From contig NC_086108.1 of the NCBI RefSeq assembly GCF_963921235.1, positions 92,506,001-92,570,000 of the forward strand: 64,000 nt of DNA, written 5' to 3'. Positions 3,733 through 60,817 of the stretch are shown one piece after another; the stretch's first letter is position 1; every line of letters begins with the position of its first letter. This DNA comes from Mobula hypostoma (taxonomy: Eukaryota). The position numbers were made by a program, and so were the translations under genes. Under the pieces are notes generated by a model. The model saw only the letters and a program-made list of their open reading frames with translations, had not been told where the DNA came from and made no database searches.

Positions 3733-5340
3733 GATTACGTAAGTATTCACCCCTTTCAAGTCAGTATTTAATAGATGCACTTTTTGGCAGTGATTACTAC
3801 CTTGAGTTTGTCCCGATAGGTCTCTGTCAGCTTTACACATCTGGACACTGCGATCTTTTTCCCCATTCTTCTTTACAAAACTATTTGAGCTCTGTCAGAT
3901 TGCATGGGATTGTGAATGAACAGCCCTCTTCAAGTCCAGCCACAAATTCTCAATTGGATTGGTGCCTAGACTCTGACTTGGCCACTCCAGGACATTAACT
4001 TTGTCGTTTTTAAGACATTCCTGTGTAGCTTTGGCTTTATGCTTGTGTTCATTGCCTTGCTGGAAAACAAATCTTCTCCCAAGTTACAGTTCTCTTGTAG
4101 AATGTATCAAGCTTCCACCAGGATTTCCCTGTATTTTGCTACATTCATTTTGCCTTCCACCTTCACAAGCCTTCCTGGGCCTGCTGCAGTGAAGCATCCC
4201 CACAACATGCTTCACTGTAGGGATTGTGTGTTTTTGATTGTAATCACAAAATAATCTGAAGATGCTGGGGTCAAAGCAACACTCACAACACGCTGGAGGA
4301 AGGACCCAGTCCTGATGAAGGGTTCCGGCCCGAAACGTCGACCGATCTTTTCCACAGATGCTGCCCGACCTGCTGAGTTCCTCCAGCGTGTTGTGAGTAT
4401 GTTTTTGATGATGTGTGGTGTTTGGTTATGCCAAATATAACGTTTAGTCTGATGGCCAAGAAACTCAATTTTGATTTCATCAGGCCATTGAACCTTCTTC
4501 CAGCTGACTCCAGAGTCTCCCACATGCCTTCTGGCAAACTCTGTCCGAGATGTCATGTGAGTGTTTTTCAACAGTGACTTTCTCTTTGCCACTCTCCCAT
4601 AAAACTATGACTGGTGAAGCACCCGGGCAACAGTTGTCACATGCGCCATCTCTTCCATCTCAGCCACTGAAGGTGGTAGCTCCTCCTCCGTCACTGAAGC
4701 TTGAAAGACTTATGAAGTTGCCATAGGTCTCTTGATGGCCTCCCTCACTATCCCCTTCTTGCACGGTCACTCAGTTTTTGAAAACGGCCTGCCCTAGGCA
4801 GATTTACAGCTGTTGCCATATTCTTTCCATTTCTTGATGATTGACTTAACTGTACTCCAGGGGAATAGTCTGTGACAGAAAATATCCTGATTTGTGCTTT
4901 CAATAACCTTTTTATGGAGTTGCTTCGAGTGTGCTTTTTCCTTCATGGTGCAGTTTTTGCCAGGATACTGATTCACCAGCAGTTGGACTTTCAGATACAG
5001 GTGTATTTTTACTATAGTCAATTGAAACATTTTGACTGCACACCTGTCTCCAAAGACAGATCTCCATTTCAGTAGTTATGTGACTGCTAAATCCAATTGG
5101 CTGCACCAGTCATGATTTGGTGTGTCATATTAAAGGGGGATAAATACTTATGCAATCAGTTATTTTGTGTTTTATATTTGTTATTAATTTAGATCACTTT
5201 GTAAAGATCTGTTTTCACTTTGACACCAAAGAGTCTTTTTCAGTTGATCAGTGTCAAAAACACCAAATTAAATCCACTGTGATTAAATGTTGTAAAACAA
5301 TAAAAACATGAAAACTTTCAAAGCTTTTTAATAGGCACTG
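3733..5340 (-). mobile_element. Degenerate Tc1 (IR/DR-type) DNA transposon
   Basis: Transposase fragments such as PWSTVKSIIKKWKEYG (4794-5030) and FARRHVGDSGVSWKKVQWPDEIKIEF (4212-4592). The right end reads ...TAGGCACTG (CAGTGCCTA on the minus strand). The inner repeat TAAGTATTCACCCC at ~3739 is mirrored at ~5135-5155. Confidence 0.85.
4239..4399. mobile_element. Miniature fold-back Penelope-derived insert with hammerhead motif
   Basis: 10-bp TSD TGTTTTTGAT at 4229-4238 and 4400-4409. Inverted arms ACTCACAACACGCTGGAGGA / TCCTCCAGCGTGTTGTGAGT. Hammerhead core at 4312-4339. Confidence 0.8.
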
Positions 5341-5659
5341 CACTTTGATACTAAATTTACTGTGAACTTTGAAGCTACTCTAAGATCAATCTACTTCTTC
5401 CCTCTCACATTGTCTTCCAATTTTCTTTCATCCATATGCCACCTAAGAATCTCTTAAAGGTCCCGACTTAAAGAAATCCTACTTTATGAAAATTCTCCTG
5501 TACGTTTTAAAGCGCTTTCCAAAATAGTGAAATATTTTGCGGTATTCATTAATGATTGGATGTATATATTCCATTGCTTAATGAAAAAATACAACATGGA
5601 AAGCTATAGAAAACAGGTGTTTCTGACTTATAGAGAAACAGTTTACAGGAGCAGAACAC

Positions 5660-6460
5660 TTGCATAACCTTGGGGACTGACAGTACCTCCCATACTTCTG
5701 TATAAGTACCACCCACTCCCTCCCCAGCCCTCTCTGCTGCAAGGAATACAAACCCAGTCTCTCTTCATAACTTACATGGTGTGGTAAACCATATATATAT
5801 ATGTTGTAACTGGGTTAACTGTCTGGACACGCCTCTCTGCTGACTGCCCCTGTGGCTCCTCCCACAGGCCCCTGAATAAAGGTGATTTCGTCCTGCTCCT
5901 CCCCCTCAGTCAGGGGCAGACACTCAGCATGCTGGAAGTCATACTTTACTGCGAATAAAAGCCTTTCAGTATTTACCCTACTTCAGTCGTTTGGAATAAT
6001 TGAAGGTGCATCACATGGTCCATTCTAGCAACGTCCTGGTAAATCACCTCTGCGCTCGCTCCAGTGGAATCACATCCTTCCTATAGTGTGGGAACCCAAA
6101 TAGCACACTATATTCAGCTGTAGTGTAAGCAAAGTTTTATAAAGCAGAGCCATAACCATCGTGCTCTTATATTCTATACCCTGGCTAATGAAGGCCAGCA
6201 TCCTATATGCTTTTTACACCACTTTATCTACAAACGTGTACCTGTGCTGCCATCTTTAGAGAATCTAATGACCTAAGCTAATGGTTTCCTCAATACTTCC
6301 TTGGGCCTTAACTTTCACTGGGCCCTGTCAGATCATATAAAGCTTCCAAAATGCAGCACCTAACATTTATTGGGCTTAGTTTCTATCAGCCATTGCTTGG
6401 CTCAAGTTATCATCTCATCAGTATTATTCTGAAGCCTAATCCTCTGACCCCTTCTGTCAA
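5660..6460 (-). mobile_element. Old CR1 LINE fragment (split by the solo LTR)
   Basis: Diverged similarity to the antisense of the CR1 RT C-terminal region at 11270-11800. Confidence 0.55.
5780..6013 (+). mobile_element. Solo LTR (234 bp)
   Basis: TG...CA termini, perfect 5-bp TSD CATGG (5775-5779, 6014-6018) and internal AATAAA. Sits within a decayed CR1. Confidence 0.85.
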
Positions 6461-8144
6461 CAATACCAGAAAAGTCTGTGGCTTCTTATCGTGGCTATCC
6501 CTCGAGGTCGAGGATGATGGTCTTTGTTCTGTTGATCGACTTATAGGCTCTCAAGTGGCTTATGAGTCCAATCTTAAGACAATATGTGGCTTCTACAACC
6601 TTGTGAATCATATTTCTTGGATATTATGACAGCTTTGCTTCACTAGGCTAAATTGTAAATCTCAGTTGTCACACCTCTTTTCTGCTACCCAAGTTTCTTA
6701 AATTTTAAGCTACCGTGTGTGGTTACCCACCCATCAGGCTGTTAGGCATGATCTGCTTCTTCTGTTGGTTTCTCAGCCCCAACCACATTCTGATTGCTGA
6801 TGAAAATTTCTTGGTTGAAGAACATTTCTCCCCATGTTTCTAATTGCCTGTCTCTTTAATTTTCCATCCCATTTCTAATCTAACCTCTCAGTCTTTGGCC
6901 TCCTACAAGGTCCAAAAGCCAGTTTGAGGAGTAGCATGTCATCTTTTGTTCAGTCGTTGACAGCCCTCAGAGCACAGTATTGAATTCAATAATATCAGGA
7001 AACCAGACTTTCCAACTTTAATCAGAAAGAGCTTTTCCTGATGTAAAGTCATCAGTGTGTAATAATAGCTAAATTTTCTCTCACCACTGATGATGCCTCA
7101 CCTGCTAAGTATTTCCACCAACCTCATTTATTCCCATTTTCCAACAACTGCAGTATTTTGTAGCTCATAATAACTATATTCCCACGTATCTTTTTCTACT
7201 TGTACTGTACCTTATCCAATGAAATCATTTTTAATTAACAAGCCGTCAGCCAGCACCTGGGTCTACCTGGGTCATTCAGTTTTCTAACCATTTGATTTGG
7301 TCAAGCGATTTGCCTGACCAAGACTATGCCCTCCTCCAGAGCCATCTTATTATTTACATTCTTCCAGTTATTTCCTTGTAAGTGATTCTCCCTTACTTTC
7401 CCATTATCTTCCTTCTGATTCTCCCGCCAACTGCATATACTAGTGGTAATTTACAGAAGGCAATTTGCCTTTGCGATATGGGAGGAAACTGAAGCACCTG
7501 GAGGAAACCATCCATGGTCACAGGGAGAGTGTGTAAACTCTACACAGACAGCTCCAGAGGTCATGACTGAACTCAGATTGCTGGAATAACAACTTGTGTT
7601 TCTTGAGATTTTGCTGTGTCCTTCATAGCTTTCTGACTGTCACTGTGGACAACCTTCCAACACATCTAGTTCTGCCACTTTTCCTCTTTTGACTTATTTC
7701 CTTAATACCAACTTCATACTCTGCATCGTGTCTCCATTAATTTCTCCCCACTCATGTACTCTGCACTGCCAGACCCTAGCTGCTTTTCTCTACATCATTA
7801 CCCACTGCCAGTCCAAGTTTCTCTCTCTCTCAGATCCACTGTAGTTCCCCTCTGTGCACCATATGGTCAGTCTGACACTCATGACAGCCTCCTAAGGAGA
7901 AACTAGACCGCTTTTCCATCATACTCTCTTACCCTCCATCCTGTTTAAGGTTCCTGCCAGGGGTTAACCTTTTCAACCACTTTTGCATTTCAGTCAGCTC
8001 TCTCAATCCCAACCATAGACACCTTGTCATTGGAATAGTTTTTGCTGCCCTAATGGTTAGAAATTCAAAATACAATTTTTTGACTAACATTTATATAAAT
8101 CATAACATTTTAGAAGCTAAGCAGGAAAATAAAATCCTCTCCTA

Positions 8145-8415
8145 TCAAGTTCTCCCTTCTTCAGTTCTTTATCTCATCCACCTCTCATCTCCAGTTTCTT
8201 ACTTCATCCCCCAACCTCTCCCACCCACCCACCTTCCTCCTCACCTGTTCCCACTTATCTTATGCAACCAGATTGTACTCCTTTTCCTCCCCAACCTTCT
8301 TAATCTAGCTTCTGCTCCCTTTCTTTCAAGTCCTGTTGAAGGGTCTTGGCCCGAAATGTCAACTGTTTATTCCTCCCCATAGATGCCGCCTGCCTGCTGA
8401 GTTCCTCCAGCATTT
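8145..8415 (+). mobile_element. Old Penelope-type terminal fragment
   Basis: Pyrimidine-rich tract followed by a degenerate hammerhead CCTGTTGAAGGGTCTTGGCCCGAAATGTC and GCTGAGTTCCTCCAGCA. Confidence 0.65.
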
Positions 8416-8596
8416 CTTCAAAGTTCAAAGTAATTTTTATTATCAAAGTACATATAAATCACCATTTAAAGCCTTGACTCATTTTCTTGTGGGCATACTC
8501 AACAAATTTATATAATAATAACTATATCAGAAACAATGGAAGACCTCCCAACTAGGGAAACAACCAGAGTGCAGAAGACAACAAACTGTGCAAATA

Positions 8597-9012
8597 GTCA
8601 TAGTCATAGTCATACTTTATTAATCCCGGGGGAAATTGGTTTTCGTTACAGTTGCTCCATAAATAATAAATAGTAATAGAACCATTAATAGTTAAATAGT
8701 AATATGTAAATTATGCCAGTAAATTATGAAATACGTCCAGGACCAGCCTATTGGCTCAGGGTGTCTGACCCTCCAAGGGAGGAGTTGTAAAGTTTGATGG
8801 CCACAGGCAGGAATGACTTCCTCTGACGCTCAATGCTGCATCTCGGTGGAATGAGTCTCTGGCTGAATGTACTCCTGTGCCCACCCAGTACATTATGTAC
8901 TGGATGGGAGACATTAACCAAGATGGCATGCAACTTAGACAGCATCCTCTTTTCAGACACCACCGTCAGAGAGTCCAGTTCCATCCCCACAACATCACTG
9001 GACTTACGAATG
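8597..9012 (-). mobile_element. Young 5'-truncated Rex1/Babar LINE 3' end
   Basis: ORF end ...SHPVHNVL...RKSFLPVAIKLYN, (ATGACT)n tail, near-identical to 50612-51300. Confidence 0.85.
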
Positions 9013-9032
9013 AAAAAAGCAAAAAGAAGAAA

Positions 9033-12000
9033 CAGCAACACACATCAAAGTTGCTGGTGAACGCAGCAGGCCAGGCAGCATCTATAGGAAGAGGCGCAGT
9101 CGATGTTTCAGGCCGAGACCCTTCGTCAGGACTAACTGAAGGAAGAGTGAGTAAGGGATTTGAAAGTTGGAGGGGGAGGGGGAGATCCAAAATGATAGGA
9201 GAAGACAGGAGGGGGAGGGATAAAGCCGAGAGCTGGACAGGTGATAGGCAAAAGGGGATACGAGAGGATCATGGGACAGGAGGTCTGGGAAGAAAGACAA
9301 GGGGGGGGTGACCCAGAGGATGGGCAAGAGGTATATTCAGAGGGACAGAGGGAGAAAAAGGAGAGTGAGAGAAAGAATGTGTGCATAAAAATGAGTAACA
9401 GATGGGGTACGAGGGGGAGGTGGGGCCTTAGCGGAAGTTAGAGAAGTCGATGTTCATGCCATCAGGTTGGAGGCTACCCAGACGGAATATAAGGTGTTGT
9501 TCCTCCAACCTGAGTGTGGCTTCATCTTTACAGTAGAGGAGGCCGTGGATAGACATGTCAGAATGGGAATGGGATGTGGAATTAAAATGTGTGGCCACTG
9601 GGAGATCCTGCTTTCTCTGGCGGACAGAGCATAGATGTTCAGCAAAGCGGTCTCCCAGTCTGCGTCGGGTCTCGCCAATATATAAGAGGCCACATCGGGA
9701 GCACCGGACGCAGTATATCACCCCAGTCGACTCACAGGTGAAGTGATGCCTCACCTGGAAGGACTGTCTGGGGCCCTGAATGGTGGTAAGGGAGGAAGTG
9801 TAAGGGCATGTGTAGCACTTGTTCCACTTACACGGATAAGTGCCAGGAGGGAGATCAGTGGGGAGGGGTGGGGGGGACGAATGGACAAGGGAGTTGTGTA
9901 GGGAGCGATCCCTGCGGAATGCAGAGAGAGGAGGGGAGGGAAAGATGTGCTTAGTGGTGGGATTCCGTTGGAGGTGGCAGAAGTTACGGAGAATAATATG
10001 TTGGACCCAGAGGCTGGTGGGGTGGTAGGTGAGGACCAGGGGAACCCTATTCCTAGTGGGGTGGTGGGAGGATGGAGTGAGAGCAGATGTACGTGAAATG
10101 GAGGAGATGCATTTAAGAGCAGAGTTGATAGTGGAGGAAGGGAAGCCCCTTTCTTTAAAAAAGGAAGACATCTCCCTCGTCCTAGAATGAAAAGCCTCAT
10201 CCTGAGAGCAGATGCGGCGGAGACGGAGGAATTGCGAGAAGGGGATGGCGTTTTTGCAAGAGACAGGGTGAGAAGAGGAATAGTCCAGATAGCTGTGAGA
10301 GTCAGTAGGCTTATAGTAGACATCAGTGGATAAGCTGTCTCCAGAGACAGAGACAGAAAGATCTAGAAAGGGGAGGGAGGTGTTGGAAATGGACCAGGTA
10401 AACTTGAGGGCAGGGTGAAAGTTGGAGGTAAAGTTAATAAAGTCAACGAGTTCTGCATGCGTGCAGGAAGCAGCGCCAATGCAGTCATCGATGTAGCGAA
10501 GGAAAAGTGGGGGACAGATACCAGAATAGGCACGGAACATAGATTGTTCCACAAATCCAACAAAAAGGCAGGCATAGCTAGGACCCATACGGGTGCCCAT
10601 AGCTACACCTTTAGTTTGGAGGAAGTGGGAGGAGCAAAAGGAGAAATTATTAAGGGTAAGGACTAATTCCGCTAGACGGAGCAGAGTGGTGGTAGAGGGG
10701 AACTGATTAGGTCTGGAATCCAAAAAGAAGCGTAGAGCTTTGAGACCTTCCTGATGGGGGATGGAAGTATATAAGGACTGGACATCAATGGTGAAAATAA
10801 AGCAGTGGGGGCCAGGGAACTTAAAATCATCGAAAAGTTTAAGAGCGTGAGAAGTGTCACGAACATAGAAACATAGAAACATAGAAACATAGAAAATAGG
10901 TGCAGGAGTAGGCCATTCGGCCCTTCGAGCCTGCACCGCCATTTATTATGATCATGGCTGATCATCCAACTCAGAACCCAGCCTTCCCTCCATACCCCCT
11001 GACCCCTGTAGCCACAAGGGCCATATCTAACTTCCTTTTAAACATAGCTAATGAACTGGCCTCAACAGTTTGCTGTGGCAGAGAATTCCACAGATTCACC
11101 ACTCTCTGTGTGAAGAAGTTTTTCCTAACCTCGGTCCTAAAAGGCTTCCCCTCTATCCTCAAACTGTGACCCCTCGTTCTAGACCTCCCCAACATCGGGA
11201 ACAATCTTCCTGCATCTAGCCTGTCCAATCCCTTTAGGATCTTATACGTTTCAATCAGATCCCCCCTCAATCTTCTAAATTCCAACGAGTACAAGCCCAG
11301 TTCATCCAGTCTTTCTTCATATGAAAGACCTGCCATCCCAGGAATCAATCTGGTGAACCTTCTTTGTACTCCCTCTATGGCAAAGATGTCTTTCCTCAGA
11401 TTAGGGGACCAAAACTGCACACAATACTCCAGGTGTGGTCTCACCAAGGCCTTGTACAACTGCAGTAGTACCTCCCTGCTCCTGTACTCGAATCCTCTCG
11501 CTATAAATGCCAGCATACCGTTCGCCTTTTTCACCGCCTGCTGTACCTGCATGCCCACTTTCAATGACTGGTGTATAATGACACCCAGGTCTCGTTGCAC
11601 CTCCCCTTTTCCTAATCGGCCACCATTCAGATAATAATCTGTTTTCCTATTTTTGCCACCAAAGTGGATAACTTCACATTTATCCACATTAAATTGCATC
11701 TGCCATGAGTTTGCCCACTCACCCAACCTATCCAAGTCACCCTGCATCCTCTTAGCATCCTCCTCACTGCTAACACTGCCACCCAGCTTCGTGTCATCCG
11801 CAAACTTGGAGATGCTGCATTTAATTCCCTCATCCAAGTCATTAATATATATTGTAAACAACTGGGGTCCCAGCACTGAGCCTTGCGGTACCCCACTAGT
11901 CACCGCCTGCCATTCTGAAAAGGTCCCGTTTATTCCCACTCTTTGCTTCCTGTCTGCTAACCAATTCTCCACCCACACCAATACCTTACCCCCAATACCG

Positions 12001-12480
12001 TGTGCTTTAAGTTTGCACACTAATCTCCTATGTGGGACCTTGTCAAAAGCCTTTTGAAAATCCAAATATACCACATCCACTGGTTCTCCCCTATCCACTC
12101 TACTAGTTACATCCTCAAAAAATTCTATGAGATTCGTCAGACATGATTTTCCTTTCACAAATCCATGCTGACTTTGTCCGATCATTTCACCGCTTTCCAA
12201 ATGTGCTGTTATCACATCCTTGATAACTGACTCCAGCAGTTTCCCCACCACCGACGTTAGGCTAACCGGCCTATAATTCCCCGGTTTCTCTCTCCCTCCT
12301 TTTTTAAAAAGTGGGGTTACATTAGCCACCCTCCAATCCTCAGGTCGGAAGGGATTGAACAAGGGGTGATAAAACAGTGTCGAGGTATGCAGAAATGAGT
12401 TCAGTGGGGCAGGAGCAAGCTGAGACAATAGGTCGGCCAGGACAGGCAGGTTTGTGGATCTTGGGTAGGAGGTAGAAATG
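9033..12480 (-). mobile_element. Penelope-like element (RT + GIY-YIG endonuclease), 5'-truncated, interrupted by a CR1
   Basis: ORF 9428-10868 has FTIDVQSLYTSIP, GVAMGTRMGPSYA, FLRYIDD and GIY-YIG VIYCVRCSRCGLLYIGET. The N-terminal continuation [19 protein letters not shown] at 12344-12478 rejoins in frame. The terminal region carries a hammerhead motif at 9098-9133. Confidence 0.95.
10869..12343 (-). mobile_element. Young 5'-truncated CR1 LINE (uninterrupted RT-domain ORF2 fragment)
   Basis: [59 protein letters not shown]. The 3' tail is (CTATGTTT)n. Confidence 0.97.
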
Positions 12481-12835
12481 TCTACTTTATTGTTGCTGAT
12501 CGAGAGATCACTGCAGGCTAAGAAAACTGAGCGAACATCTTTGCTGATTTTGGTGTAGATTCTTCTACATGTGTAATTTCTAACTGGAGGACAACAGTTC
12601 TGATGATGTAATACTTCACTGTACTGGAGTATTGCATCATCGGAGCTGATTCCAGCAGCTGGAGTTCCCTTCAGAAGTCGGCAGAAGGCTCATTCATGGG
12701 ATTGGTTGAAATAAATGGTGTTAAAACATTGATGTAATTTTTCTGTCAGTTGTTCCACTGTCACCAGTTGCTGCCTAAAGTCAGAGATTAGCCATTAACA
12801 GATTTAAATTGGATCTTGCCAATTTTTAGTGAAAT

Positions 12836-25290: not shown

Positions 25291-25435
25291 ATGAGTTGGT
25301 GGTTCGGAGCGGGCGTTGCGCTGTTGGCGCTAGTCTGCATATTCCTTGCACGATTTTTCCTAATACTAGGGCGGAATGAGACGCCAGAGGCCCGCAAGCG
25401 GGGCTCCGCCAGCATTCTGGTGGTTATCGGCTCTG
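25291..25435 (+). CDS. ALG14: ALG14 coding exon 1 (N-terminal hydrophobic anchor, ILVVIGSG)
   Basis: MSWWFGAGVALLALVCIFLARFF...SASILVVIGS-G, donor G|GTAAG, phase 1. Splices to exon 2 to give the ALG14 signature GSGGHTTE. Confidence 0.93.
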
Positions 25436-27103: not shown

Positions 27104-27395
27104 TGGGTAGTACAGTAGCCTAGTGGTTAGCATATTGCTTTACAGTACCAGCGACCCAGGCTCATTTCCTGCTGCTGTCTGTGAAGAGTTAGCACATTCT
27201 CTCCGTGACTGCGTGCGTTTCCTCCGGATGCTCCGGTTTCCTCCTCAGTCCAAAGACGCACTGGGTTAGTATGCTAAATGGTCATTGTAAATAGTCCTGT
27301 GGTTTAGGCTAGAGTTAAATCAGGGGTTGTCGGGTGGTGCTGGTTGAAGGGTAGGAAGGGCCTATTCCATGCTGTATCTCAATAAAATAAAAAAT
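27104..27395 (+). mobile_element. HE1-like SINE (tRNA head, V-SINE-type core, CR1-like tail)
   Basis: TAGCCTAGTGGTTAG head, core TTTCCTCCGGATGCTCCGGTTTCCTCC, tail GAAGGGCCTATTCCATGCTGTATCTC. Related copies at ~7440-7590(-), ~23415-23570(+) and 41377-41652(-). Confidence 0.8.
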
Positions 27396-28578: not shown

Positions 28579-29847
28579 GGAGAACCTATGGAATTATTTT
28601 CTGAATCAAGATTGTGGAAACCACATTGAATATGGTTGGGGCAGCTGCCTGATTTTTGTTTTGATTGCAAATGGGCATCAGAGTGAATTGGAAAGTGTGG
28701 GGAAATTTGTATAAATCGCGACTGGATCAGTCGTATTCTTGATAAATGATGGTGCAGACTCAAGGGTCTAAGCCGGCTTACTCCTACTCCCATTTATTCT
28801 TGTTTCCATGCCTCTGCAATGTGTAACACGGACATGATTTATACATAACTGAGAGCATGCATTAAGTACTGAAATACTTCCATGATATTTGAGTAAACAT
28901 TATAAATTTTGTATTATAAAATAGTGTGACTGAGTGCATAAAGTTGCAGCAATTCATTACTAGTAAGGAATCCATTTGAATATCCTGTGCTAAGTTAACC
29001 CTTCACTTGAGGTAATGGTTGTAAATAATTACAGTTTTAAATTTTACGTATTTTTCCACCAGAAGGAGCGTTCAGCTGAAGCATTTGCCCTGTTCTTGTC
29101 TCTCTGATTGTCTGGCTGCTGAGTGTTGGCTTGGCTTATTTGCTTTTGAAGTACTTTGCCTGCTGCTAGTCAATCAGTCTTAGCTGGCCTCCTTGTTATA
29201 GTTCGTGTTAAGACCATAAGCTATAGGAGCAGAATCAAGCTATTTGGCCCATCCATCATGACTGATCAATTTTCTCTCTCAACCCCAATCTCCTGCCTTC
29301 TCCCCGTATCACTTCATGCCCTGACTAATCAAGAATCTATCAACCTCTGCCTTAAGTATACCCAATGACTTGGCCTCCACAGGCACCTGTGGCAATGAAT
29401 TCCACAGATTCGCCACATTAAAAGCTGCTGCTCTTTTAACTTGTCCCAAATCCTGTTCACTTATCCCTCTGACTGGCAATGCTCACACCAGCTGTCATTG
29501 TGACTTTGATCTTCTCTATCTCTGTAAACTCCTAAAGCTGCAGGTACTCTAAGCTGCATGTTGAGAGTCTTCCCCTGTTTTTAACTGCTCCATTATTGAC
29601 AAAGAACTTAAGTTGTAAACTGACTAGGGCCTGATCCAGGGTTTCAGACAGTTCCTTCCCTTCCCCTGCCCCAGAGATGCTCGACCTGCTGAGTTCTCCA
29701 GCAGATTTTCTTTTTGTTGCTCCAGGTTCCAGCATCTAAAGTCTGATGTCTCCCGGTTCACAATCAGTACCCTTTTTCTGCCTTCTCCCATATCTCTTCA
29801 CTCCGCTATCTTTAAGAGCTCTATCTAACTCTTTTTTGAAAGAATCC

Positions 29848-32571
29848 TTTTGCACCTTCATTAATCCCTTGGTTCTGTAAGGTTTTCGAGGCTTCATTAA
29901 AACTTGGTAAACTTCCCGAATCTTTCAATAGAGCGTCAATCTCTCTAATATTAAAGAAGGATAAAGATCCTGCTCAATGTGCATCTTATAGACCAATATC
30001 TTTATTAAATGTTGACTCTAAAATTTTTTCTAAGTTATTAGCAAACAGATTAGAAAAAGGACTTCCTTTTATTATTTCGGAAGACCAAACGGGTTTTATT
30101 AAAGGTCGTTACTCTTTTTATAACATTCGCACACTGTTAAATATTGTTTCTACCCCCTCACAAAATGTTCCTGAGTGTGTTATCTCTTTAGATGCTGAGA
30201 AAGCTTTTGATAGAGTAGAATGGCCTTACTTATTTAAGGTGCTTGAAATGTTTAATTTTAGCTCGAAATTTATATCCTGGATCAAACTGTTATATCATTC
30301 TCCTGTGGCCTCGGTCCGTACTAACTCTCTAAGCTCACCTTTTTTCCCTCTTTTTCGAGGTACTCGACAAGGTTGTCCACTTAGTCCTTTATTATTTGAT
30401 ATTGCATTAGAACCTCTTGCAATTGCCATTCGAGAATCTCCAAATATTACTGGGATAACTCGGGGCTTAAAGTCCCATAAAATATCACTCTATGCTGATG
30501 ACTTACTTTTATATATTTCTAATCCTCAAAAATCTATCCCTGCTGTTTTAGAGCTATTAGCACAATTTAGTCTCTTTTCAGGTTATAAATTAAATCTTAG
30601 TAAGAGTGAACTTTTCCCGATTAATAAACAACTTCCCTTATATCATAACTTTCCGTTTAAATTGATTAATAATTATTTTTCATATCTTGGGATTAAAATT
30701 ACTTGTAAACACAAAGATTTATTTAAGATTAACTTTTTACCCTTAATTGACCATATTATTCAACTTTCATCTAAATGGTTTCCTTTATATTTAACTTTGA
30801 TTGGTCGTATTAATACAGTTAAGATGATTTTTCTGCCAAAATTTCTATATATATTTCAGGCATTACTGATTTTTGTTCCAAAATCTTTTTTTGATAAAAT
30901 TGACTCAAAAATTTCTTCATTTATTTGGCAAAATAAAAACCTGAGACTGGGTAAAATACATTTACAGAAAGCTAAGAGAGATGGTGGTTTAGCATTGCCT
31001 AACTTTAGATTCTATTATTGGGCAATCAATATTCGAGATATGAAATTTTGCTTACTTGACCAGGATATACTATCCATTCCTAAATGGGTAGCATTGGAAT
31101 TACAATCTGTTCAGGGCTATACACTTGGCTCTATTTTAGGTTCCTCTCTTCCTTTTGATTTGAAATGCCTTAAACAGGTAACTAACCCGATAGTTAAATA
31201 TACCTTACGTATTTGGTTCCAATTCAGAAAATTTTTTGATCTTAACCAATTTGGGCTAGCGATTCCTATTTTAGGTAACATATTTTTTCCTCCCTCTTTT
31301 ACGGATCGTGCTTTTCAAATTTGGAAGACTAAGGGTATTTCACGGTTTTTGGATTTATTTTTAGATGGTTCCCTTATGTCTTTTGAACAATTATCTAATA
31401 AATATAATTTATCAAGAATACATTTTTTTTAGGTATCTACAAGTTAGAAATTTCCTAAGTACTATACTTCCTTCTTTTCCAATGCTTCCTCCTACATACA
31501 TTTTAGATACTACAATTAACCTTAATCCATGTCAGAAAGGTGCATCGGCTATGATTTATAATATTATTATGAAACTTAGGAAAGCTCCATTTGATAAGAT
31601 TAGGGTAGATTGGGAACAGGAATTGGGGTCTATCATTTCCGTGGATGACTGGGGGCAGATTTTACAATTAGTCAATACTTCCTCTATCTGTGCTAAACAT
31701 TCCCTAATTCAATTTAAAGTTGTTCATAGAGCACATATGTCCAAAGATAAATTAGCTTGCTTTTATTCTCATATTAATCCTTTTTGTGATAGATGTACGG
31801 GGCAGATAGCCTCTTTAACTCATATGTTTTAGTCTTGTCCTACTCTGGAAACTTTTTGGAGAGACATTTTTAATATTATCTCAAAGGTATTGAATATAGA
31901 TATCTCTCCTCACCCTATTACTGCTATCTTTGGACTACCTAAAATTTCCAGTAATCTTTCTCCTTCAGCCCGTAGAATGATTGCATTTCTTACTTTAATG
32001 GCGAAAAGATGTATCTTACAACATTGGAAAGAGCTTAATGCTCCAACCACCTTTTTTTGGTTTTCTCAGACGATATTATGCTTGAATTTGGAGAAAATTA
32101 GAAGCAATCTTTATGATTCCTCACTTAAATTTGAACAGACCTGGAGATCTTTTATTCAATATTTTCATTTACTGTAATTTTTTTTCTTCTCTTTTTTGCT
32201 CCATATTTATATACCCTTCTTGTTTTTTTTTACTGTTTTTAATGGAGGTCGGGTTTGAGGACGTGATTTTAAGTTCTTTAACTCTATTTGGTTCCAAGTT
32301 AGCCCATTGCTTTGCTTTGCTTTTAGTTTAGTTGCACTGTGGGTTTTTTTTTGGGGGGGGGGGGTTTCCTTTTCTCTATTGATATATATATATAAAAATT
32401 AGTATACTATTATGTTACCTTAGTATGTTATGTTTAAATTACATTGTTTGTATCACTTTTTTCTGTATTAATATTTCCTGTAATTTTATTATATTCTAAC
32501 AGTGTATTAGTGCCTATATGGCTTACCCTTTTGTATACTTATTCAATAGAAAGATTTAAAAAGAAAAGAAA
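29848..32571 (+). mobile_element. 5'-truncated L1/Tx1-group LINE (ORF2 RT + C-terminal CCHC), lightly disrupted
   Basis: YRPISLLNVDSKI, RGTRQGCPLSPLLF, LYADD, CDRC...THMF. Frameshift at a T-run near 31425 and stop at 31830. A-rich tail and 10-bp TSD GAAAGAATCC (29838-29847, 32572-32581) inside a CR1 3' fragment. Confidence 0.93.
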
Positions 32572-41082: not shown

Positions 41083-41376
41083 GCTGCCATTCATGCTATT
41101 GGGTTTTGCTTTGCAGGAAGTGATCTTCAGCATCTGCAGACTTTCTTGTGTTTTTGATCTGCAGAATCTGTTGTTGTCTATTTAATATTTGAGTAATATT
41201 GTAAATATGTTGTTTGATTAAGCATTCTTTGTTTTTTACATAATATATTGTGAGTTATATGTAGAAGTATGTAAATAGCATATATTATCATGCCACCACG
41301 TGCTATACGTGTGTGTCTCACTTAAAAACACTTAAAAACAAAGTACGCATCTTCTAGTTCCTTATTTTGCCTTTAT

Positions 41377-41652
41377 TTATTTATTGAGATATGAATAGGC
41401 CCTTCTGCCCTTCAAGCCGTGAAACCCCTGATTTAACCCTAGCATAATCACAGGAAATTTACAATCACCAATTAACCTACAAACTGGTAAGTCTTTGGAC
41501 TGTGGGATGAAACTGGAGCACCTGGAGAGGAATTGAATAAATGCACGGTGTCGGGGAGAGCGTACAGACTCTCTACAGGCAGAGGTGGGAATTGAACCCG
41601 TGTCTCCTGTACTGTAAAGCTTTTTGCTAACCACCACACGACTGTGCTGCCC
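41377..41652 (-). mobile_element. HE1-like SINE
   Basis: Minus-strand head GGGCAGCACAGTCGTGTGGTGGTTAGC...GGGTTCAATTCCC; core and tail as in 27104-27395. Confidence 0.8.
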
Positions 41653-41679
41653 TCTTTTAGTTTTAATGTTTTGGAGTGA

Positions 41680-42097
41680 CAAAACCTGCTGCATCCGTAA
41701 AGCAAACAGCATTATGAAGGACCCCACACACTCCTCATATAAACTCTTCTCCCTCCTGCCATCTGGAAAAAGGCACCAAAGCTTTCGGGCTCTCACGACC
41801 AGACTATGGAACAGTTTCTTCCCCCAAGTCATCAGACTCCTCAATACCCAGAGCCTGGACTGACACCAACCTACTGCCCTCTGCTGTGCCCATTGTCTTG
41901 TTTATTATTTATTATAGTGCCTGCTCTGTTCTGTGCACTTTATGCAGTCCTGGATAGGTCTGTAGTCTAGTGTAGATTTTGTGTTTTTTCTTACATAGTT
42001 CAGTGTAGTTTTTGTATTGTTTCATGTAGCACCATGGACCTGGAAAACCAGCAGTTATGGTTGAAATGACAATAAAAGGTGACTTGACTTGACTTGA
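41680..42097 (+). mobile_element. 5'-truncated Rex1/Babar LINE abutting the ALG14 exon 2 acceptor
   Basis: KTCCIRKANSIMKDPTHSSYKLFSLLPSGKR...NSFFPQVIRLLN, 3' AAATGACAATAAAA plus (GACTT)n tail. Confidence 0.88.
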
Positions 42098-42114
42098 TGA
42101 TACTTGTCTTGCAG

Positions 42115-42266
42115 GGGGACATACCACAGAGATTCTCAGGCTTGTGGGCAGCCTCTCTGCCTCATACAGCCCCAGGCATTACGTCATTGCTGAAACAGAC
42201 AGGATGAGTGAAGACAAGGTCCGCACACTTGAGGCTGCCAGAGCTGAAGAAGGTCCTGAACCTCAG
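42115..42266 (+). CDS. ALG14: ALG14 coding exon 2 (152 nt)
   Basis: Acceptor cttgtcttgcAG. Translates (G)GHTTEILRLVGSLSASYSPRHYVIAETDRMSEDKVRTLEAARAEEGPEPQ. Donor CAG|GTAGGT; phase 1 in, phase 0 out. Not in the ORF track because it lacks a start codon. Confidence 0.95.
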
Positions 42267-42558
42267 GTAGGTGTTAGCATGGGCTTGGAACTGTGACCCA
42301 AGAGCAGTGTCTCCCTTTGTGCCTGATGTGTGCAGAGGGATTGCTAGCTCGACTAAGTGCGGTGGTGATGAACACAAGAAATTCTGCAGAAGCTGGAAAT
42401 CCAGAGTAACACACACAGCAAGATGGAGGAACTCAGCAGGTCAGGTAGCATAAACAGTCTGAGACCCTTCATCGAAAGCAAGAGGGAAGAAGCTAGAATA
42501 AGCAGGTGGGGTGGGATGAGGAGAAGGAGTGCAACCTATAAGGTGATAGGTGAAGCCA

Positions 42559-48458: not shown

Positions 48459-50611
48459 TTTAAGGACACCACCCACCATCCAGCATCCTCTTTGACTTTC
48501 TCCCATCAGGCGGGATACTCCGATGCACAAAAGCGAGAACGGTCAGGGTGGGAAACAGTTTCTTCCCTCAGGCCGTTAGGCTTCTGAACTCCCTGCACAT
48601 CGCATTCAAAGTCACAGGTTAATCTGTTCTGTACCTGACAATATTTAATTTATGCACTTTGTTCATGTATGTGTAATTCATCAGTAGATTTTATCCTTGC
48701 CTTCCTCAGTTATTGTGTGTTTTTTATGTGTGTGATATGTACTACTGTGCTTTACACCCTGCTCTGGAGAAACATTGTCTCATTCATGTATATAGTTAAA
48801 TTACAATATACTTGACTTGAAATTGAGTGTGTGAGGAACCCAGCAGTTAAAGGTTGAAGTTGCTTTAATGCAAAACGAAGAATAAATCAACACATAAAAC
48901 ACTGGAGGAACTCAGTGACCACTCTGATTATTTTGTGCTAAAATTGACTTTATTTCTGTTCTTATTAAAAATGTTCAATTTAAGTTTTTTCTTGTGAATG
49001 TTACTTAAATGATGCTACTTGTCTGTGACGCTGCTGTAAGTAAATTTTTCGTTGCACTTGTGCGTAAAACAATAAGCTCAACCTGGACTTTGGTCGGGAC
49101 GCCTCTCCGAGGTCAAGCTGTGCTGACAGACCTTTCATCTGACTACTGCCCGTCCAGGTGAAAGATCTGGACCCGAAACGGTGGCCATTCATTTCCATCC
49201 ATGGATACTGTCTGACCCATTAAACTGCTGCAGTGTTGTGTGTGTTGCTCCAGATTCCAGCATCAGCAGTCTCGTGTATCGCCAGTGAACAATAGTGAAT
49301 GCTGTTCTTTGCCAAAGCAATCAAAATGATCAAATAATTGAGTTGAATGATAGCATAATTGTCTGCCTTTGAAGACAAAGGTTGGTGGGCTTTGTGTTTT
49401 ATAATCTGCTCGAGAGTCCCTTAAGACCGGTACAATGGGTGTAATATTTCCTGAATCACTCGTTTCTTTCTTGTTTGCCAATTCCCAAATTGAGATTGTG
49501 AGGAAGAGATCTGTGGGAAGTTTGGGCTAGATGTTATCAAATAATCAGAGGGAAATTTTAACATTTTTGGAGTTGTTTTTCTATGTAGTGCAAATGTTAC
49601 ATTAAAGGGTTGGTTGCTATTTTTATTTGTTTCTGTTTAATCATTTTATTTGCTACTAAGTTTGATGCTGATTCTGATTAGGTTTAGACTGTTGATATTG
49701 GACAGTTGCTGTAGTATTTTGCAATATGAGCAGAGTACTCAGGAGAGCGAAGTCTAATGTGCAAATGCATTGTAATAACATGAAACATGGCTGGGTTGGG
49801 GCTGGCCCATGCAGGCCAACTCTCCCATTGGTGCTGCTCTCCCAGTGTTTGCTTCTTGGAAGACAAGCTGGATTGCCTTTGACCCAGTGAGAGATAAGGA
49901 ACTGCTGCATGCTTGTTCCTGCAAAAGCGCGGCTCCAGGACAACATCCCATGCACCATCAATCTTCAGGCCATGTCACTTAGGGACTTGTGCTAATATTA
50001 TTTTGTGACTGTGCTTTGTAACTGTATGTACTTGTTTTTCACCTTGTCCTTGGAGGAATGATATTTCATTTTGCTGTATACAGGCGTATGGTTGAATGAC
50101 ATTTAAACTTGAATTTGAACTTGAAATATGAAGCTTGTTGCTGCTCGTATGAGCCAAACTCTTCCATAAGCGATGGGCAATTTTGTTTAAAAAAAAAATC
50201 TTGATATTCAAAAGGCAAGCTTATGGTGTGTGCTCTTGCGTTAGAGTTGCCTAAGGTTATGAATTCAAGTTCCACTGTAGAAACATGAGCACAGTTCTGG
50301 GTGACCGTCCCACACTGTATCCTGATGGAGTTTATACTGTCAAAGCAGATGCCTTCCTACTGAGGAATTTTCTCAGATCTTGCATTCTTCTGGATGTAAG
50401 AGATTCCTTGATGCTAATCTGACCGAAAGCATGTGCTCTCACCAGTGTTATATTTATGAATATTTATCCCTTCGTCAACATCAGAAGAAAATAGACTCCT
50501 CACGTTGTTGTTGTTGTTGTTATTATTATTATCATTATTGCTGTTGTACCTCCTCTTGTCAACTATGATTACATTCTAAGTGTGCTTCACCAATGTAAAC
50601 TAAGAATGTAA

Positions 50612-60694: not shown

Positions 60695-60817
60695 TTTACC
60701 ATTCACCGGATTCCCCGTAGTCGTGAAGTACGTCAATCTTGGGTGACTTCAGTGGTCTCTACACTATTTGCCCTGTTGTATTCCATCCCACTGGTATTCC
60801 AACTTAAACCAGACGTG
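60695..60817 (+). CDS. ALG14: ALG14 coding exon 3 (123 nt)
   Basis: Acceptor ccttctttccacttgttttgcAG. Translates FTIHRIPRSREVRQSWVTSVVSTLFALLYSIPLVFQLKPDV, containing the ALG14 motif IPRSREVxQS. Donor GTG|GTATGT; phase 0/0. The gene continues beyond the window. Confidence 0.95.

What the first reader, a model, noticed from the sequence alone, without database searches (positions are those of the whole stretch)
41663..42114. A LINE tail appears to have replaced the branch point of ALG14 exon 2
Seen: a sense-strand Rex1-type LINE (41680-42097) ends only 14-17 nt before the exon 2 acceptor AG (42113-42114). Its (GACTT)n tail gives three yUnAy matches (TTGAC, TTGAC, TTGAT; A at 42087, 42092, 42097), so the usual branch window of roughly -18 to -40 is almost entirely LINE-derived. 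Removing the insert (possible TGA duplication at 41677-41679 and 42098-42100) restores TTAATgttttggagtgatacttgtcttgcAG with a yUnAy adenosine at -28. Established: ALG14 acts at the second step of dolichol-linked oligosaccharide assembly, and skipping this 152-nt exon shifts the frame. Inference: the insertion was tolerated because its microsatellite tail mimics a branch site. Caveat: the reconstructed ancestral site has an intervening AG.
Basis: partly seen in the sequence, partly recalled or inferred. Interest (0 to 1): 0.75.

Follow-up and report, generated by a model that had tools for sequence, protein, structure and literature searches.

The report
LINE tail replaces ALG14 branch site
In one devil-ray lineage a 411-base jumping-gene fragment landed 18 bases before exon 2 of the glycosylation gene ALG14 and pushed the old intron sequence away, yet the exon is still joined normally, likely because the fragment's repeat tail now supplies the splicing branch point.

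Summary
The core observation holds, and the empty site was found. A 5'-truncated sense LINE fragment (41686-42096, 411 bp) sits 18 nt before ALG14 exon 2. Of 5 organisms laid, 2 carry it and 3 have the empty site. The likely old branch A is GTGAC at -25, now at -436 behind 24 AGs. All three UnA motifs in the usual -19..-37 window are now LINE-derived; the pyrimidine tract and AG remain host. Transcript contigs from both carrier species join exon 1-2-3 at the annotated acceptor. Branching in the tail is inferred (about 0.75); no lariats were seen. 'Tolerated because of mimicry' is weak: 30% of arbitrary window sequence would supply a yUnAy there, and 77% a UnA. The host site also resembles the tail in register (10/15; 0.1% background), a hint of homology-aided insertion. 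Repeat-supplied branch points are known (Alu, MIR), and this scan has noted similar cases on other DNA, including this genome. A clean, dated example of a known kind.

The parts
41686..42096 (+). 5'-truncated LINE fragment, 411 bp, blunt insertion without target duplication; family sequence starts at 41688, two extra bases before it
   Evidence: Joint 41685->42097 in C and D and family loose ends at 41688; empty-site letters in C and E
41690..41863 (+). C-terminal end of ORF2 and its stop codon
   Evidence: 84% identical to Hypanus sabinus proteins; 10 of 16 hits carry RT plus PF09004
42071..42076 (+). AATAAA in the LINE 3' UTR, the only one in the insert; possible intronic polyadenylation signal
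   Evidence: use not tested
42079..42096 (+). (GACTT)n tail with candidate branch adenosines at 42082 (-33, GTGAC), 42087 (-28, TTGAC), 42092 (-23, TTGAC)
   Evidence: branch use inferred
42097..42114 (+). Retained host 3' splice site: A at -18 (junction-made TTGAT), short pyrimidine tract, CAG; unchanged in C and D
   Evidence: all 9 differences in C and D lie at 42158 or later
41675..41680 (+). Likely ancestral branch site (GTGAC, A at 41679): -25 in the empty allele, -436 now
   Evidence: Kept in A, C and E; inferred
41663..41667 (+).
42115..42266 (+). ALG14 exon 2 (152 nt)
   Evidence: Pfam PF08660 E 1.3e-8; transcript contigs
25291..25435 (+). ALG14 exon 1 coding part, followed by GTAAGT
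   Evidence: joined to exon 2
60695..60817 (+). ALG14 exon 3
   Evidence: joined to exon 2
41373..41652 (-). Older SINE-like repeat whose head lies about 50 nt before the exon in the empty allele; its head part is also in C and D
   Evidence: Second copy at 27105-27394; left side of the joint aligns over 81 letters, back to about 41605

Best explanation
A 411-bp truncated LINE inserted between the branch region and the pyrimidine tract of ALG14 intron 1 in two related devil-ray species, moved the likely old branch adenosine from -25 to -436, and exon 2 is still spliced at the same AG, likely because U2 now pairs with TTGAC units of the LINE tail at -23 or -28. Shown: the insertion, its borders, the empty site and the normal exon junctions. 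Inferred: which adenosine branched before and which branches now. On motif criteria the swap is neutral or an improvement: in -19..-37 the empty allele has 0 yUnAy and 1 UnA, the filled allele 2 yUnAy and 3 UnA, and the AG-free zone grows from about 25 to 34 nt.
For: Empty site in 3 of 5 organisms laid, with borders at the LINE's truncation point and tail end. A and B share a letter at 42300 against C, D and E, and E is the most distant (12 of 236 differences against 7 of 236 for C), so one gain on the A+B line is the simplest history. Transcript contigs X11 (A) and X13 (B) run from exon 1 into 42114/42115 and from 42266 into exon 3; each run gave 1 contig and it was this form. 90% of mapped human branch points lie 19-37 nt upstream and UnA is the core (PMC4315302, passages). 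All three UnA motifs in that window are LINE-derived. 24 AGs separate the old site from the acceptor. Of 14 AGs from 41860 on, only the true acceptor has several branch candidates plus a long AG-free zone. MIR insertions supplied mapped branch points in reporter assays (PMC7969005, passages).
Against: No lariat data. Contigs show presence, not inclusion level, and drop rare forms. The RNA samples are not the DNA samples, so their carrier status is assumed. The carrier junction contigs hold only 27-30 letters on the LINE side, under the tool's 31-letter rule for bridging. Host or junction adenosines at -18 and -15 remain possible. Branch rules are taken from human data. The motif is common, so its presence says little about selection. 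The copy differs from the family majority at 19 or more of 411 places, about twice the per-lineage intron divergence between A and C (6 of 133 in total), which is unexplained.
Confidence: 0.75

Rival explanations
1. The branch point does lie in the LINE, but the mimicry did not decide survival: almost any insert would have been tolerated because the host kept its pyrimidine tract and AG and branch motifs are degenerate. This is compatible with the best explanation and opposes only the first reader's causal claim.
For: Arbitrary window sequence gives at least one yUnAy in 30% (27% on the other strand) and at least one UnA in 77% of 63,960 placements; the reversed insert also passes. The ancestral site itself had no yUnAy in -19..-37. 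Human splicing is described as resistant to branch-motif change (PMC4315302, passage).
Against: Repeats within 20 bp of acceptors are strongly depleted in mammals (PMC3088655, passages). The tail unit is yUnAy-positive and AG-free in sense only, while 3 of 6 short units taken from this window have no yUnAy in either direction.
Confidence: 0.5
2. Splicing branches at a retained host adenosine (42097 at -18 or 42100 at -15), so the LINE contributes flanking bases at most.
For: Both adenosines are host-derived and have U at -2 in the filled allele.
Against: Both lie outside the 19-37 nt range, and the TTGAC units pair better with U2 on paper. The motif around -18 needs LINE bases.
Confidence: 0.12
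3. The insertion is mildly harmful: some transcripts skip exon 2, use an AG inside the LINE, or end at the LINE's AATAAA, and it persisted by drift.
For: The insert adds AATAAA at 42071 and AGs with 12-13 pyrimidines upstream (41998, 42003, 42029; the true site has 10). All 6 upstream AGs tested give early stops, so such products would likely be degraded and unseen.
Against: Only the normal junction was assembled in 2 of 2 RNA-type runs. Those AGs lack good branch candidates or AG-free zones.
Confidence: 0.2
4. The displaced old branch point is still used from -436 as a distant branch point.
For: Distant branch points exist (PMC7969005, abstract text).
Against: 24 intervening AGs and no adjacent pyrimidine tract.
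Confidence: 0.02
5. The LINE is older and was deleted precisely in C, D and E.
For: The copy's divergence from the family majority is higher than expected for its apparent age.
Against: The joint matches both ends of the element without any flanking repeat, in three species that include the most distant one.
Confidence: 0.03

Closest known systems
Branch points supplied by inverted Alu elements (Mercer et al. 2015, PMC4315302; passages and section 7 read)
   Same: A retroelement provides the branch adenosine; 154 such branch points were mapped.
   Different: Those serve new exons made from the Alu, in antisense. Here a sense LINE tail sits before an old protein-coding exon, only the branch region is swapped, and no branch point is mapped.
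MIR insertions in OGDH intron 4a reporters (PMC7969005; passages read)
   Same: An insertion between branch point and acceptor can bring new branch points (clone MIR15) or block splicing (the other clones).
   Different: Engineered, in a regulated exon with distant branch points; the present case is natural and shared by two species.
Canine merle SINE at the PMEL intron 10/exon 11 boundary (PMC7349775; passages read)
   Same: A retroelement inserts into an existing acceptor region and separates the branch point from the acceptor.
   Different: Merle is antisense, has a 15-bp target duplication, supplies a pyrimidine tract and a cryptic acceptor, and alters the product. Here there is no duplication and the assembled product is normal.
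Under-representation zones of intronic repeats (Zhang, Romanish and Mager 2011, PMC3088655; abstract and passages read)
   Same: Defines the zone in which this copy sits: under 20 bp from an acceptor and in sense, the class described as most likely harmful for LINEs.
   Different: Mammalian statistics; the word 'branch' does not occur in the text.
Rex1/Babar LINEs (PMC6274825; passages read)
   Same: CR1-related LINE, often truncated, with a conserved 3' UTR followed by an oligonucleotide of variable length.
   Different: The RT domain that defines the clade is absent from this fragment.
3' microhomology at CR1, L2 and RTE insertions (Ichiyanagi and Okada 2008, seen only as cited in PMC6007223 passages)
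   Same: Tail and target overlap at the 3' junction (1 base here).
   Different: Here a longer in-register likeness lies 5-15 nt into the target, and the target is a splice acceptor.

Membership tests
non-LTR retrotransposon (LINE) insertion | 3' end of an RT-encoding ORF followed by a 3' UTR and a tandem tail | tested here: met
   (11 of 16 hits list PF00078); tail extends in family copies
non-LTR retrotransposon (LINE) insertion | High-copy dispersed family with 5' truncation | tested here: met
   3,772-9,765 contigs laid per run on 41500-42400 (flanking repeats included); family letters continue upstream of 41688
non-LTR retrotransposon (LINE) insertion | Orthologous empty site | tested here: met
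   3 of 5 organisms laid
non-LTR retrotransposon (LINE) insertion | Target-site duplication (typical, not obligatory) | tested here: not met
   Blunt joint, 0 shared letters
Rex1/Babar clade | RT domain groups with named Rex1/Babar elements | not testable with these tools
   The fragment has no RT and no hit was named Rex1. The link of PF09004 to this clade is recalled; a paper search for DUF1891 with retrotransposon found 0
Rex1/Babar clade | Conserved 3' UTR followed by an oligonucleotide of variable length | tested here: met
   feature as stated in PMC6274825; not specific to Rex1
Repeat-supplied branch point | UnA or yUnAy 19-37 nt upstream of the acceptor lies in repeat-derived sequence | tested here: met
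   -33, -28 and -23
Repeat-supplied branch point | No competing AG between branch site and acceptor | tested here: met
   34 AG-free nt
Repeat-supplied branch point | The acceptor is used in carriers | tested here: met
   Spliced contigs in species A and B; genotype of those individuals not shown
Repeat-supplied branch point | Lariat maps to the repeat-derived adenosine | not testable with these tools
   All runs laid were assembled contigs, no raw reads
Exonized repeat | Repeat sequence included in the mRNA | tested here: not met
   Contigs join exon 1 directly to 42115; rare forms would be missed

The most novel reading that the evidence does not exclude
This LINE family both seeks and repairs splice acceptors. 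Its (GACTT)n tail resembles CTTG-type pyrimidine tracts, pairs with them to prime insertion just upstream, and then leaves tandem branch motifs at the right distance. Here the target matches the tail in register (10 of 15 at the junction, 9 of 10 from 42102; background 0.1-0.2%), and the LINE's last 43 nt align with the empty site at 30 positions. The family would then be enriched in sense at -15 to -25 of acceptors genome-wide and would be a repeated source of new branch points.
Probability: 0.08. Interest if true: 0.7.

Novelty: new member of a known kind. Interest (0 to 1): 0.38.

Why it matters
It is a natural swap of the branch region alone, with both alleles available in close relatives and the pyrimidine tract, AG and exon held constant. 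That makes it a ready test of how replaceable branch points are at a frame-critical exon of a core glycosylation gene (ALG14's role is recalled; searches give the family and name). With the similar cases noted elsewhere in this scan, it suggests a genome-wide count of LINE tails at acceptors in rays. Alone it does not show selection or a new mechanism.

Tried and rejected
No whole genome is held for this window, so the genome-wide sense/antisense count is open. The run search listed no holder on record as RNA; two runs guessed as RNA proved to hold spliced contigs. The TGA duplication and the TTAAT at -28 were rejected. An assembly artefact is unlikely: species A contigs match both junctions without differences and relatives show the empty site. 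I tested whether the host acceptor is a relic of an older copy of the same family. The 50-nt tail aligns to the empty site with score 38 (5 of 5,000 shuffles; 8 other places in the window reach it, some of them other LINE ends). Against the whole 237-nt UTR it is weak (17 of 300 shuffles), and sequence upstream of the SINE scores similarly against several unrelated UTRs. So it is not supported, but not excluded. Pfam found no family in the 60-aa ORF end itself. Literature searches listed no paper on this locus or on a LINE microsatellite tail replacing the branch point of an old exon; I judged most from titles and abstract starts, one search returned 0, the library lacks most subscription papers, and no supplements were read. 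A sequence look-up in earlier scan notes found nothing.

Full report
Setting. The window holds exons 1-3 of ALG14 on the + strand: exon 1 ends at 25435, exon 2 is 42115-42266 and exon 3 starts at 60695. The joined exons translate to about 140 residues that read identical to Mobula hypostoma ALG14 isoform X1 (P0002), so this is a devil ray or a very close relative. Skipping exon 2 gives a stop 8 codons into exon 3.

The element. The stretch before exon 2 ends an ORF whose last 57 residues match 16 of 18 candidate proteins; 10 of the 16 carry both an RT domain and PF09004. Related ORF ends occur about a dozen times in the window. After a 3' UTR come AATAAA (42071) and a (TGACT)x3.6 array. In public contigs, family copies go on past 42097 with more CTTGA and then diverge (118, 96 and 38 contigs in three runs), so the tail belongs to the family. 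The label Rex1/Babar fits the anatomy given in PMC6274825 (passages) but could not be tested, as the fragment has no RT.

The empty site. One run search listed 24 runs from six organisms; I laid 8 of them. Organism A matches the window across both junctions with no differences (41589-41715 and 42070-42400). Organism B has the 3' junction with 4 differences in 331. These contigs hold only 27-30 letters on the LINE side, below the tool's 31-letter rule, as expected where a contig breaks in a repeat. Organisms C and D each have one single-copy contig that jumps from 41685 to 42097. For C and E the letters before 42097 were printed: they end in GTGACAGAAC and GTGACAAAAC, which is the window's left flank up to 41685. 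The insert is thus 41686-42096, blunt, with no duplication. No empty joint was listed for A or B (12 joints not shown). A and B share one letter (42300) against C, D and E, and E is the most distant, so a single gain on the A+B line is simplest. One oddity: the copy differs from the depth-weighted family majority at 19 or more of 411 places (40 rows shown, 22 hidden), more than the flank divergence suggests. A divergent source copy would explain it; I could not test that.

What was displaced. In the true empty allele, TTAAT has its A at -38, followed by an AG at -28; organism E has TGAAT there. GTGAC has its A at -25, is kept in A, C and E, and has no AG after it in A and E. Organism C has a new CAG just downstream. 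It would be too close to matter for a branch at -25 but well placed to compete for one at -38 (threshold of about 8-12 nt as stated in PMC7969005). I therefore take GTGAC as the likely old branch site; this is inference. It now lies at -436 with 24 AGs in between.

What replaced it. The host kept 18 nt, unchanged in C and D. In the 19-37 nt window that holds 90% of human branch points (PMC4315302), the filled allele has GTGAC at -33 and TTGAC at -28 and -23, all from the LINE, inside a 34-nt AG-free zone. The empty allele had one UnA and no yUnAy. The match at -18 uses a host A with LINE bases before it. Among 14 AGs from 41860 on, the true acceptor is the only one with several branch candidates and a long AG-free zone, although three upstream AGs have more pyrimidines.

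Splicing. One contig each from RNA-type runs of A (X11) and B (X13) covers exon 2 exactly, with exon 1 letters before it and exon 3 letters behind it. This shows the normal product exists in both carrier species. It does not give inclusion levels, rare forms, or the genotype of those individuals.

Was the mimicry needed? Placing every stretch of the window before the kept 18 nt gives at least one yUnAy without a competing AG in 30% and at least one UnA in 77% of 63,960 placements (-19..-37; 43% and 85% for -18..-40). The same insert reversed also passes this lenient test. A surviving insert with a motif is therefore only about three times more expected under strict selection for yUnAy than under none. 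Against indifference, repeats under 20 bp from acceptors are scarce in mammals (PMC3088655), and most MIR inserts downstream of branch points repressed the exon in a reporter (PMC7969005). One locus cannot decide this.

An extra lead. The host sequence after the insertion point continues the tail's five-base register: 10 of 15 letters match (138 of 127,970 background positions), and 9 of 10 from 42102 (3 of 1,249 pyrimidine-rich pseudo-acceptors reach that). This was noticed after the fact, and a wider test is weak (17 of 300 shuffles). It would fit pairing of the RNA tail with the target during priming, as proposed for CR1, L2 and RTE elements (PMC6007223, passages), or an old relic of a related element, or chance.

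Comparison and verdict. Repeat-derived branch points are documented for exonized Alus and engineered MIR inserts, and the merle allele is a known insertion at an existing acceptor. My searches listed no report of this locus or of a sense LINE tail replacing only the branch region of an old exon, within the limits given under Tried and rejected. Earlier notes of this scan describe similar insertions at acceptors in this genome and in other genomes; I did not check them and do not count them as support. Verdict: a real, dated insertion; the branch point is likely LINE-derived; the causal claim is unproven; new member of a known kind; interest 0.38.

Noticed in passing
window 42044-42047: Many family contigs carry a T-rich piece of about 30 nt here that this copy lacks (loose ends in 62 and 58 contigs). 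It would lie directly before the AGs at 42051 and 42054, so its absence removes the pyrimidine tract of a would-be cryptic acceptor. Private loss or subfamily trait is unknown.
   Followed up: partly
window 42097-42111: Host acceptor region matches the LINE tail in register (10 of 15).
   Followed up: yes
window 41690-41860: After rays (80-97%), the closest ORF2 ends are from catfish, characiform and knifefish genomes at 66-78% identity, which may hint at horizontal transfer of this family.
   Followed up: no
window 41373-41652 (-): A SINE-like repeat already sat about 50 nt before this acceptor in the empty allele, so two insertions crowd the same intron end.
   Followed up: partly
organism C, position matching 41682: An A>G change creates a CAG 22 nt before the exon in a non-carrier species; its effect on splicing was not tested.
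   Followed up: partly
window 48592-48830: A diverged LINE 3' end with a similar ACTTG-type tail lies in intron 2.
   Followed up: partly
P0003 (Hypanus sabinus): An annotated 175-aa ALG14 isoform lacks the exon 3 segment; 175-aa isoforms are also listed for Pristis and Scyliorhinus.
   Followed up: no
window 9428-10942 (-), 10971-12689 (-), 29840-31432 (+): Long open frames of about 500-570 aa that look like retrotransposon RT regions, upstream of the gene and in intron 1 (labels by eye).
   Followed up: no
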